A stretch of DNA of 64,000 bases, taken from positions 45,576,540 through 45,640,539 of the forward strand of contig JASCQW010000105.1 of the NCBI GenBank assembly GCA_030264375.1, read 5' to 3'. Shown here in pieces: positions 1,887 to 30,072 of this stretch (position 1 is the first letter of the stretch; the number at the start of each line of letters is the position of its first letter). Made by a program: the position numbers and the translations under genes. Source of the stretch: Carcharhinus longimanus. Its lineage: Eukaryota. The notes beneath the pieces are model-generated. The model was not told where the DNA came from and did not search any database. It saw only the letters and a program-made list of their open reading frames with translations.

Positions 1887-2351
1887 AAACGCTTACTGAA
1901 ATGTTGCTGATGAAATCACTTAATTTACTGCAAGGTTCACCCAAGGACTGCAACTATAAGATTGCCTGAAGCATTTCAAGGTGTAATCAAACACAAGTTT
2001 CATTTTATAGTGAAAGTGACAAAATAGCTTGCTTGGTACTCCCAGAGATAAAATATTCTTGATAGATTTCAAGATCAGATGATGCAATGAGTTAGAAAGC
2101 ATTTTGTCCTATCATTTCTAGATTAGTGAGAATTCCACACAGGCAGAGGAAATGAAATTCACCAATCCTGGTTTGGTGTATTATTGACACCAGGACTATT
2201 AATGTAATAGAGTATTAAGTTATGGACAGAGTGTTTCCCTAACCTCGGTACATCACACAGCTACAACCACACTCATAAATGAATCAGGGGCATGCCAATC
2301 AGAGCAATGTCTGCATGAAGTGCAGAGAAGTCTGCATAGCTGTAGAGGTCA

Positions 2352-2607
2352 TGATGTGGATGTGCCGGCGTTGGATTGGGGTAAACACAGTAAAAAGTCT
2401 GACAACACCAGGTTTTAGTCCAACCGATTTNNNNNNNNNNNNNNNNNNNNNNNNNNNNNNNNNNNNNNNNNNNNNNNNNNNNNNNNNNNNNNNNNNNNNN
2501 NNNNNNNNNNNNNNNNNNNNNNNNNNNNNNACCTGACGAAGAGGGAAACCTCGAAAGCTTGTGCATTTACTATCAAATAAATCGGTTGGACTAAAACCTG
2601 GTGTTGT
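2352..2607. mobile_element. Fold-back Penelope-like non-autonomous element (family A) with hammerhead motif
   Basis: Perfect 29-bp inverted repeat at 2402-2430 / 2579-2607. Exact 15-bp TSD TAGCTGTAGAGGTCA at 2337-2351 and 2608-2622. The centre is an N gap. Confidence 0.85.
2531..2563 (+). ncRNA. minimal type-I hammerhead ribozyme motif
   Basis: CTGACGA (2533-2539), A, stem II GAGG-GAAA-CCTC, GAAA (2553-2556), then GCT (completing the AGCT palindrome of stem III), T, GTG. Confidence 0.75.
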
Positions 2608-3352
2608 TAGCTGTAGAGGTCACAGACAATGTGAGGAAATACTTGCAAATACAGAAAAATAGAAAGTCAAACAATGCCTCATTCCTTATGGTTCAGGGTT
2701 CTTGTTTACTCAAAATACTAATACTAATACTAATCGTGGTTTCCAGTTTATTTCATTGGAACTCTTTTGCATATATTGCTAGTTTAGAAAATACAGATGG
2801 CACAATCATCTCTGGTTTGTAGTCACACATTCATCAAATTAAATAGTGTTTCTTAATGTGCAGAAAATGCCCCATTACATTTACAGCCCTGAGCTAACAA
2901 TAAATAAAAGGAGACATTAAAACTCACAGTCATATAGTTAACTGCTATACAGCACAGCACCTTGATATCTAGGATAAGTTGGAGGCATTGATATTTTATT
3001 GCCAGCTGTTCCAAAGCTAGAAACTATATAGACCACTAGCCAGCTGTATGCTTCTGGGAGAGAGGGGACAAAAATGAATTGTGCCACAAATTGACACAGC
3101 TAGGCTATACTGCAAAAGAAAGTGACCATTGCTGGTTTAGCAAAATATCAAAACTAGTGCCAGCTTCTGACATGGAACGTGTACCCCTTTCTCTTCTTCC
3201 TGAAGAGTTCAGAAGGCTCAATAATACACACAATGAAATTCAATGTAAGTATTGCTTTGCTTGAAAGCAGCTGGAGATTATTCAATTATTCTGCCTTTTG
3301 ATGCTTTATTTTTCTATTTCAGGAAAGTTGGTTAGCTCTGTTGTTATACTTT

Positions 3353-28690: not shown

Positions 28691-29134
28691 TGAGGCAACC
28701 ATCCAAGTTGGTGTTGATTGACTATTCTCCTTTGAAGTGCACTGGGATGTCTTAATATGTTAAAGGTGCTATGTAAGTTCAAGTCATTGCTATTTAATTC
28801 CATTAGGTTTTTGTTATCTTTTTGTACCTGCATGGCTATCTTTAAACTTCTGTGTATCTGCAATCCATGTGTTTCTCCCACTCCTAGTCTGAGCTTTCAT
28901 GTATACTTTCAGTTTTTCTTTTTATATAAAGTATCACACATTTTCCTGCATTCGTTTGTAACTGCTATCTATCTGCCCAAACTGACAGAGGTGTAACTAT
29001 AGATTCCTGAGACAAACTAATGGCCACATCTTTTCAAGCAAAGGAACAACCATTTACTTCTAAGGTCTCTTTTTGGGTCCTTAACAAGCTCACATTCAAT
29101 GCAGTTGCATCAATACCATGTGCTTTGATTTTTG

Positions 29135-29340
29135 GTGTGGAGTTGCCAGCGTTGGACTGGGGTAGGCACAGTAAATAGTCTCACAACACCAGAGTAAAAG
29201 CTGACAGGTTTATTTGATAGCATGAGCTTTCAGAGCATTGCCCCTTTATCAGGTGACTCTCCTGATAAAGGGGCAACGCTCCAAAAGCTTGTGCTACCAA
29301 AAAAACTGTTGAAATTTAACCGGTGTTGTGAGACTACTTA
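29135..29340. mobile_element. Fold-back Penelope-like element (family A, gap-free copy) with two opposed hammerhead motifs
   Basis: Exact 12-bp TSD CTTTGATTTTTG at 29123-29134 and 29341-29352. About 80-bp imperfect arms. TTATCAG (29246-29252) and CTGATAA (29262-29268) flank the axis. Homologous to 2352-2607. Confidence 0.85.
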
Positions 29341-30072
29341 CTTTGATTTTTGTAATGTCTCTTATGTGACACTTTATCAACACTTTCTGAACATCCACAT
29401 AAGCCAACATCCACCACACTTCCTATAGCAACAGTGCTATTTTCTTTATTCACTGAAACTTGTCAAAGGAAAACTGTTATTCATTGCTGACTGCCTGTTA
29501 TTATCCTAACAAAAACCTAGAATTAAATCTTATGAAGAATAATCTGGAGCTCAGTAAGTCCATGTTGTCAGAACGTGCAGCTGCATTTATATATTGAAGT
29601 TAAGTGAAAACGTTTTGGGCCCCACTTTTTTTTACTTTGGACGATGGTCTATTCACAGGGAAAAATAAATTTGGTGCGATAACCTTTTGGAAGAGCTTCC
29701 ATGTGACAGCAGCTTCCAGAAAGTCTTGTTTTGAAGATCTTTTGAGGTTTTTTTCATTTTGTGTTGGCTTTGCTGCATTTTGTTCCATGCATTAGTTAAT
29801 TTTGCCAACCGGATCTCCACTTCTGTCTACCAGCACTAATTTGTACGCATGCCTGTGATATTGTGGGGGTGAAGTTACCACTGCACTCCACTGGTCAATG
29901 GGCAGGGTGAGCTGATAAATCACAGGCGAGCCAGGAAATCAGGTTTGCACCTGAATTTCTTGCCTCTCATGATCTTACTAGTACTATGTATCTGGCAAGA
30001 TCAGTCTCATGCACAAAGAGGCTGACCTCAATATTTAAATTGCATTTAAATCAGCTACAGAGCCCTGCAGTA

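What the first reader, a model, noticed from the sequence alone, without database searches (positions are those of the whole stretch)
2337..2622. Young fold-back mini-retroelement carrying an intact-looking minimal hammerhead ribozyme
Seen: exact 15-bp TSD, perfect 29-bp inverted repeat, a ~50-bp unpaired left extension, and a complete hammerhead core (CUGACGA-A, stem II GAGG/CCUC closed by a GAAA tetraloop, GAAA, self-complementary AGCU stem III, predicted CUU cleavage triplet, then GUG). Established: Penelope-like elements carry minimal type-I hammerheads in their pseudo-LTRs, which cleave efficiently only as dimers, and they often have inverted pseudo-LTRs plus a tail. Inference: this is a non-coding ribozyme-bearing element mobilised in trans by target-primed reverse transcription, and the mirror hammerhead is hidden in the N gap.
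Basis: partly seen in the sequence, partly recalled or inferred. Interest (0 to 1): 0.8.

Follow-up and report, generated by a model that had tools for sequence, protein, structure and literature searches.

The report
Fold-back stub of a Penelope-like retrotransposon
This is a recent insertion made of two short, back-to-back copies of the ribozyme-motif-bearing end of a Penelope-like jumping gene, one of thousands in this shark-like genome, and it is likely a dead by-product of ordinary retrotransposition rather than a new kind of mobile ribozyme.

Summary
In detail: 15-bp duplication, 29-bp perfect inverted repeat, minimal type-I hammerhead motif. Three related organisms carry the empty site with one copy of the 15-mer. 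The arms are the 3' end (pLTR plus tail) of a high-copy Penelope-like element (at least 4,110 exact 28-mers); sister copies run into its GIY-YIG coding end, and older copies encode the RT. The gap is a 100-N placeholder, so size and mirror hammerhead are unknown. A mirror would be antisense and is predicted to trap the ribozyme in a hairpin, not dimerise with it. TSDs are 9-18 bp, so not a MITE. Nearly every fold-back pairs one tailed with one untailed end (36 of 39; 26 of 28; none tailed twice), which fits both nicked strands priming at the two RT start sites described in vitro for a lizard element. No 5' ends fall at the cleavage site (0 of 26). I found no intact coding master for this young subfamily. 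The anatomy is published, and the scan noted it before in other genomes. Verdict: new member of a known kind, low interest.

The parts
2337..2351 (.). Left copy of the 15-bp target-site duplication; its last 4 nt also match the element template at the ORF start
2352..2430 (-). Inverted long arm: element 3' end read on the minus strand, ending at the ORF start codon (distal start site); includes the ~37-nt tail; runs into the gap
2431..2530 (.). 100-N assembly gap of unknown true length; holds the inversion junction, and perhaps the mirror hammerhead and more pLTR
   Evidence: no contig crosses it
2531..2563 (+). Minimal type-I hammerhead motif: CUGACGA 2533-2539, extra A 2540, stem II 2541-2552, GAAA 2553-2556, palindromic stem III, predicted cut after U2560, stem I 3' strand 2561-2563
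2531..2607 (+). Direct short arm: pLTR 3' part without tail, ending 49 nt before the ORF start codon (family mode 35-38)
2608..2622 (.). Right copy of the 15-bp target-site duplication

Best explanation
This is a 5'-truncated, head-to-head double copy of the 3' end of a Penelope-like retrotransposon, flanked by a 15-bp target duplication, and it likely arose when the element's nuclease nicked both strands 15 bp apart and each strand primed reverse transcription at a different start site on the element RNA. The top strand would prime at the start codon (long arm with tail), the bottom strand about 49 nt upstream (short arm); both cDNAs stop early and are joined through a few bases of microhomology. 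The hammerhead is a passenger part of the pLTR. It is conserved in the lineage, but in this copy it has no same-strand partner in view and is likely inert. Shown: anatomy, empty sites, copy number, link to coding sequence in sister copies, end-site rule. Inferred: the two-strand priming, the joining step and the inertness.
For: Empty site with one TSD copy in runs of organisms B, C and D; both junctions filled in X1, X2, X4, left junction in X5. 484 exact copies of the 28-nt core and 4,110 of the downstream 28-mer, reversed controls 0. Young-lineage copies continue upstream into the GIY-YIG C-terminus (L036 about 620 nt, L150 about 370 nt) and downstream into the first codons of the ORF (L121, L122, L125). 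Older copies carry RT motifs, a CX4CxxC linker and the CCHH GIY-YIG; closest proteins are from sharks, 79-86% identical for the top 13 of 71. One tailed plus one untailed end in 36 of 39 fold-backs and 26 of 28 in an independent sample, none with two tails; P about 3e-6 and 2e-6 if ends were chosen independently. Distal ends at -1..+1 in 15 of 24, proximal at -35..-38 in 17 of 23. TSD 10-18 bp in 26 of 28 fold-backs versus 2 of 16 single-orientation copies. PMC11167929 reports nicking and extension of both strands and two RT start sites that bound the tail.
Against: The gap is not closed, so length and junction of this copy are unseen. No intact coding copy was found among 69 scored of 39,236 candidates; the 12 best coding loci are closer to the older pLTR wherever a pLTR is present, and none of 30 of 96 tail-to-ORF junction copies showed the young pLTR. 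PMC11167929 saw no difference in start site between strands in vitro, and studied a Poseidon, not this clade. PMC3846280 explains junction palindromes by self-priming on an antisense template. This copy's short end (-49) is about 12 nt off the mode. 46 of 90 sampled loci had an outer end at an N gap and were left out of the counts.
Confidence: 0.8

Rival explanations
1. Same insertion chemistry, but the source RNA of the young subfamily is a non-autonomous, internally deleted pLTR unit that borrows RT and nuclease from a coding relative.
For: Young copies are very short; no coding master with the young pLTR was found; L123 shows a young-type end directly before an old-type pLTR and ORF; non-autonomous PLE derivatives are described (bioRxiv 10.64898/2026.07.22.740005; PMC3846280).
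Against: Young-lineage copies reach up to about 620 nt into the coding end, with no fixed 5' boundary; one carries an inverted fragment from further up the ORF (L052); 66 of 92 arms are cut by N gaps, so a master could lie in unassembled sequence. I saw no head-to-tail arrays of a short unit, though I ran no dedicated search for them.
Confidence: 0.2
2. The mirror arm is made by fold-back (self-primed) DNA synthesis on the first cDNA or on an antisense template, not by second-strand priming on RNA.
For: Arms of one insertion agree at subfamily-diagnostic sites far more than random pairs (8 of 69 discordant versus 43%); PMC3846280 favours self-priming.
Against: Often each arm holds sequence that the other lacks, and in L051, L060 and L200 the arms barely overlap. 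L174 and L190 carry different stem II variants in their two arms (assembly path errors beside the gap are not excluded).
Confidence: 0.12
3. The fold-back is itself a mobile, self-cleaving unit: its transcript is cut by paired hammerheads and reinserted.
For: The core is intact and stem II pairing is kept across variants.
Against: Junctions differ among copies. Mirror copies are antisense and fold into one long hairpin that swallows the core (L125, L189, L203 and window 29133-29352). 0 of 26 uncensored 5' ends lie at the cut site. Many fold-backs lack a complete core.
Confidence: 0.04
4. A MITE of a DNA transposon, or an assembly artefact.
For: Terminal inverted repeats and a central gap.
Against: TSDs vary from 9 to 18 bp; the ends are asymmetric; the arms are colinear with an RT/GIY-YIG element; both junctions occur in independent runs and the empty site in relatives.
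Confidence: 0.01

Closest known systems
Insertion units of EN+ Penelope-like elements: inverted 5'-truncated pLTR plus 30-40-bp tail at one end (PMC8557442 Fig. 2 legend and passages; PMC3846280 passages)
   Same: Head-to-head arms, tail on one end only, variable TSD, assembly trouble at the inversion, C-terminal GIY-YIG partner.
   Different: Here the unit is reduced to little more than two pLTR ends; TSDs (mostly 11-15 bp) are longer than the 8-10 bp seen in the rotifer passages; thousands of copies.
Minimal type-I hammerheads of metazoan PLE pLTRs (PMC4209133, parts 1-2 of 4 read)
   Same: Extra base between 9 and 10.1, G10.1-C11.1 pair, palindromic 15.2-16.2, no helix III loop, mostly solo copies; that paper already notes opposite-strand pairs 100-700 bp apart.
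   Different: Stem II is short (3-5 bp) and stem I is 3 bp plus an imperfect extension; the triplet is CUU or CUA. Sharks are not named in the parts I read; supplements not seen.
Anolis Poseidon PAc (PMC11167929, parts 1-2 of 4 and passages)
   Same: Two start sites that bound the tail; both strands extended; uncut RNA is the template.
   Different: In PAc the ORF starts inside the hammerhead and the start sites lie about 111-118 nt or more into the ORF; here the ORF starts about 100 nt downstream of the motif and the distal site is the start codon. The strict one-site-per-strand pairing seen here was not seen in vitro. The ORF here has the linker Zn-finger that Poseidon lacks.
Non-LTR retrozymes (bioRxiv 10.64898/2026.07.22.740005, part 1 of 5 and passages)
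   Same: Non-coding, type-I hammerhead, PLE pLTR origin.
   Different: Retrozymes are defined as head-to-tail tandem units with two or more hammerheads; this is a head-to-head pair colinear with a coding element.

Membership tests
EN+ Penelope-like element (truncated copy) | [quoted passage not shown] | tested here: met
   Sister and older copies: RT motifs and GIY-YIG with the CC and two H by eye; Pfam RVT_1 E 2.6e-5, below the curated cut-off, and GIY-YIG E 0.083, weak, on fragments; RVT_1 above cut-off on homologues. No coding sequence in the window itself.
EN+ Penelope-like element (truncated copy) | pLTR with hammerhead, directly before the ORF start in tandem units | tested here: met
   Tail joins the start codon: 96 exact junction matches, L123 continues into the ORF.
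EN+ Penelope-like element (truncated copy) | Inverted 5'-truncated copy and a 30-40-nt tail on one end | tested here: met
EN+ Penelope-like element (truncated copy) | Variable-length TSD made on insertion | tested here: met
   Empty sites; 9-18 bp
Neptune / Nematis clade | CX2-5CxxC motif in the RT-EN linker | tested here: met
   CX4CxxC in translations; definition from PMC8557442
Neptune / Nematis clade | RT phylogeny with named references | not tested
   No named reference sequences were fetched; 'Neptune-type' rests on architecture only
Minimal type-I hammerhead | CUGANGA and GAAA boxes, extra base, G10.1-C11.1, palindromic stem III | tested here: met
   Among 89 cores picked for intact boxes: extra A 89, G-C 75 and G-U 13, stem II of 3 bp or more 82; 43 of the 89 are the searched variant
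Minimal type-I hammerhead | Stem II pairing kept across different sequences | tested here: met
   6 of 6 recurrent variants pair at least 3 bp; shuffles mean 0.34, maximum 3; alignment
Minimal type-I hammerhead | Self-cleavage as dimer or with protein help | not testable with these tools
   Cofolding two sister copies pairs the palindrome between molecules, but not in the full dimer fold
Non-LTR retrozyme | Head-to-tail tandem of units, each with a hammerhead | tested here: not met
   This copy is head-to-head between one TSD
MITE | Fixed short TSD and symmetric terminal inverted repeats | tested here: not met

The most novel reading that the evidence does not exclude
These thousands of stubs record the Penelope reaction in vivo: one RT-nuclease complex nicks both strands about 12-15 bp apart and assigns one strand to each of two RNA start sites, always one each, and now and then copies the two arms from two different pLTR variants. 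That would explain inverted pLTR, one-sided tail and TSD by a single step, and would set aside the self-priming model.
Probability: 0.5. Interest if true: 0.45.

Novelty: new member of a known kind. Interest (0 to 1): 0.2.

Why it matters
The locus is ordinary: one stub among thousands. Its modest value is as data on how Penelope-like elements form their inverted structures, which PMC8557442 calls undefined. The one-tailed-end rule, the tie between inversion and TSD, the absence of 5' ends at the ribozyme cut site and two mixed-arm copies give predictions that the existing in vitro PLE assay could test. The insertion could also serve as a lineage marker, since it is absent in three related organisms.

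Tried and rejected
Closing the gap: only contigs of public runs were available and none crosses it. No RNA holder listed; this says nothing on expression. Run X11 did not cover the junctions. Rfam: no hammerhead match. Coding partner inside the window: none. Intact master ORF: none among those scored. Ribozyme cut as source of 5' ends: 0 of 26 uncensored ends at the site, 66 of 92 arms censored by gaps; some ends called at 30-33 nt are likely stem II mismatches with my references. Lead from earlier notes that 5' ends cluster at the upstream edge of stem I: 9 of 57 arms end within 5 nt of the core, against a lower rate further up, but that sample was selected for the core and the independent sample shows no clear peak; inconclusive. 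In one search the 330-nt values of L013 and L191 are self-matches. Primer-template microhomology: my first permutation test was too lenient; with a two-sided null the long end keeps an excess (39 versus 22.6, P about 0.007, n = 24) and the short end none; only 24 of 53 loci passed the script's filters, so a hint only. L036 and L131 have arms of different subfamilies but no TSD or a gap, so I do not count them as single insertions. Look-up of earlier findings by sequence gave nothing. Literature searches for a description in sharks or of twin priming in PLEs listed none by title or abstract start; the library lacks most subscription papers and Repbase/Dfam were not available, so the family may well be catalogued.

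Full report
Observation. The coordinates are right. An exact 15-nt direct repeat lies at 2337-2351 and 2608-2622, and an inverted repeat at 2399-2430 / 2579-2610, of which 29 nt are perfect. The gap 2431-2530 is exactly 100 N, like 6 of the 10 gaps in the window, so its true size is unknown; it also hides the outer pair of stem I. Rfam finds no hammerhead here or on a sister copy, so the motif is called from its defining features as given in PMC4209133.

The insertion is real and recent. I laid 8 of 22 listed runs, all as contigs. In X6, X7 and X12 (organisms B, C, D) one contig passes from 2336 straight to 2608: the element and one copy of the 15-mer are missing. X1, X2 and X4 have contigs entering the element from both sides, X5 from the left; X11 does not cover the site. 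X1 may be the source sample and X2 and X4 are one sample, so these are not all independent. The flanks of the empty sites differ from the window at 14 of about 930, 15 of about 730 and 30 of about 730 letters. No contig crosses the gap.

It belongs to a large family. The 28-nt core occurs 484 times exactly, the 28-mer downstream of it 4,110 times; reversed controls give 0. Walking upstream from sister copies leads through about 210 nt of 3' untranslated sequence into the end of a GIY-YIG ORF, then, in older copies, to RT motifs. The closest proteins are from sharks; I infer a shark-like host from that alone. The ORF has a CX4CxxC linker and the CCHH motif, the architecture that PMC8557442 gives for Neptune and Nematis; I built no tree. 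On the other side the tail ends at the ORF start codon. The arms are therefore the pLTR and tail of an EN+ Penelope-like element. The genome holds several subfamilies; the window copy is of the youngest, 97-100% identical to the best matches.

How the fold-backs are built. From 118 loci of four searches plus the window (2 duplicates dropped, 2 without a central hit, 3 skipped), 39 were fold-backs with both outer ends mapped: 36 have one end at the start codon and one 28 nt or more upstream, none has two tailed ends, and 3 have two short ends, 2 of them at gaps; 28 of 39 have a TSD of 9-18 bp. An independent sample of 90 loci, taken in order along one contig from the first 100 listed of 4,110 matches, gave 46 with an outer end at a gap, 16 single-orientation copies and 28 fold-backs: 26 long plus short, 2 with one intermediate end. 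TSDs of 10-18 bp flank 26 of 28 fold-backs but only 2 of 16 single copies, where my boundary calls are less sure; mismatched flanks gave at most 7 nt in 108 pairs. Independent choice of ends would give such counts with P near 1e-6. The two end classes lie about 37 nt apart. Junction centres differ from copy to copy, several with 2-3 shared bases, and gap-free fold-backs span 122-457 bp with one of 1,028.

Mechanism. PMC11167929 shows for a lizard Poseidon that both target strands are nicked and extended, that RT starts at two sites bounding the tail, and that hammerhead mutants insert normally. Applied here (inference): nicks 15 bp apart leave two 3' ends; one primes at the start codon, the other upstream; both cDNAs stop early and join. 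This gives arms, one-sided tail and TSD in one step. Arms of one insertion mostly share diagnostic bases (8 of 69 discordant, random pairs 43%), as expected for one RNA or one source. L174 and L190 carry different stem II variants in their two TSD-flanked arms, which suggests two templates at times, though both have a central gap and a path error is possible. Against the model: that paper saw no strand difference in start site, and PMC3846280 prefers self-priming.

The ribozyme. Across 89 cores with intact boxes the extra A, the G-C closing pair, the palindromic stem III and stem I are kept, and stem II changes sequence and length while staying paired. The lineage has thus likely been under selection for the fold. 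This copy is another matter. A mirror would be antisense; in copies that have it the predicted fold is one long hairpin that absorbs the core. Both cores are present in 2 of 19 gap-free fold-backs, but those have perfect inverted repeats of at most 49 nt, so the gapped ones may hide longer mirrors; for this copy I cannot tell. None of 26 uncensored 5' ends lies at the cut site, in line with uncut RNA as template.

What is open. No intact coding copy turned up among 69 scored candidates. The 12 best coding loci are closer to the older pLTR, and none of 30 of 96 tail-to-ORF junctions showed the young pLTR; the one automatic 'young' call, L328, is unrelated flank by eye. Young-lineage copies do reach several hundred bases into coding sequence. 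A cis master hidden in gaps is my preferred reading; a deleted, trans-mobilised source keeps about one chance in five.

Comparison and verdict. Inverted pLTR, one-sided tail and assembly trouble are described in PMC8557442 and PMC3846280 (passages); solo and opposite-strand minimal hammerheads in PMC4209133 (parts 1-2 of 4). It is not a retrozyme as defined in bioRxiv 10.64898/2026.07.22.740005 (part 1 of 5 and passages), nor a MITE. I read no supplements; those of PMC4209133 may list shark motifs. Earlier notes of this scan report the same kind of stub in other genomes; I had reached my reading before that look-up and do not count them as support. New member of a known kind; interest 0.2.

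Noticed in passing
window 29123-29352: An older-subfamily fold-back of the same element, gap-free, with a complete but mutated mirror hammerhead and a 12-bp TSD.
   Followed up: yes
L174 1124-1580; L190 1398-1719: TSD-flanked fold-backs whose two arms carry different stem II variants: two templates, or an assembly path error at the central gap.
   Followed up: partly
L123 about 1095-2640: A young-type pLTR end directly followed by an old-type pLTR and the ORF start: a mixed partial tandem.
   Followed up: no
L318-L347: Many old-type copies end about 55-130 nt into the ORF, which may mark a further RT start region; the search pattern biases this.
   Followed up: no
L228-L317: Fold-backs nearly always have a TSD (26 of 28), single-orientation copies seldom (2 of 16), which may mean two routes of resolution.
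   Followed up: partly
L082 2265-3233: A coding fragment inverted against itself with a 100-N gap at the centre, showing that such gaps also sit inside long copies.
   Followed up: no
L225 1414-3102: A stop-free stretch of 563 codons covering most of the RT of an old-type copy, with local frame changes and a gap before the nuclease end.
   Followed up: no
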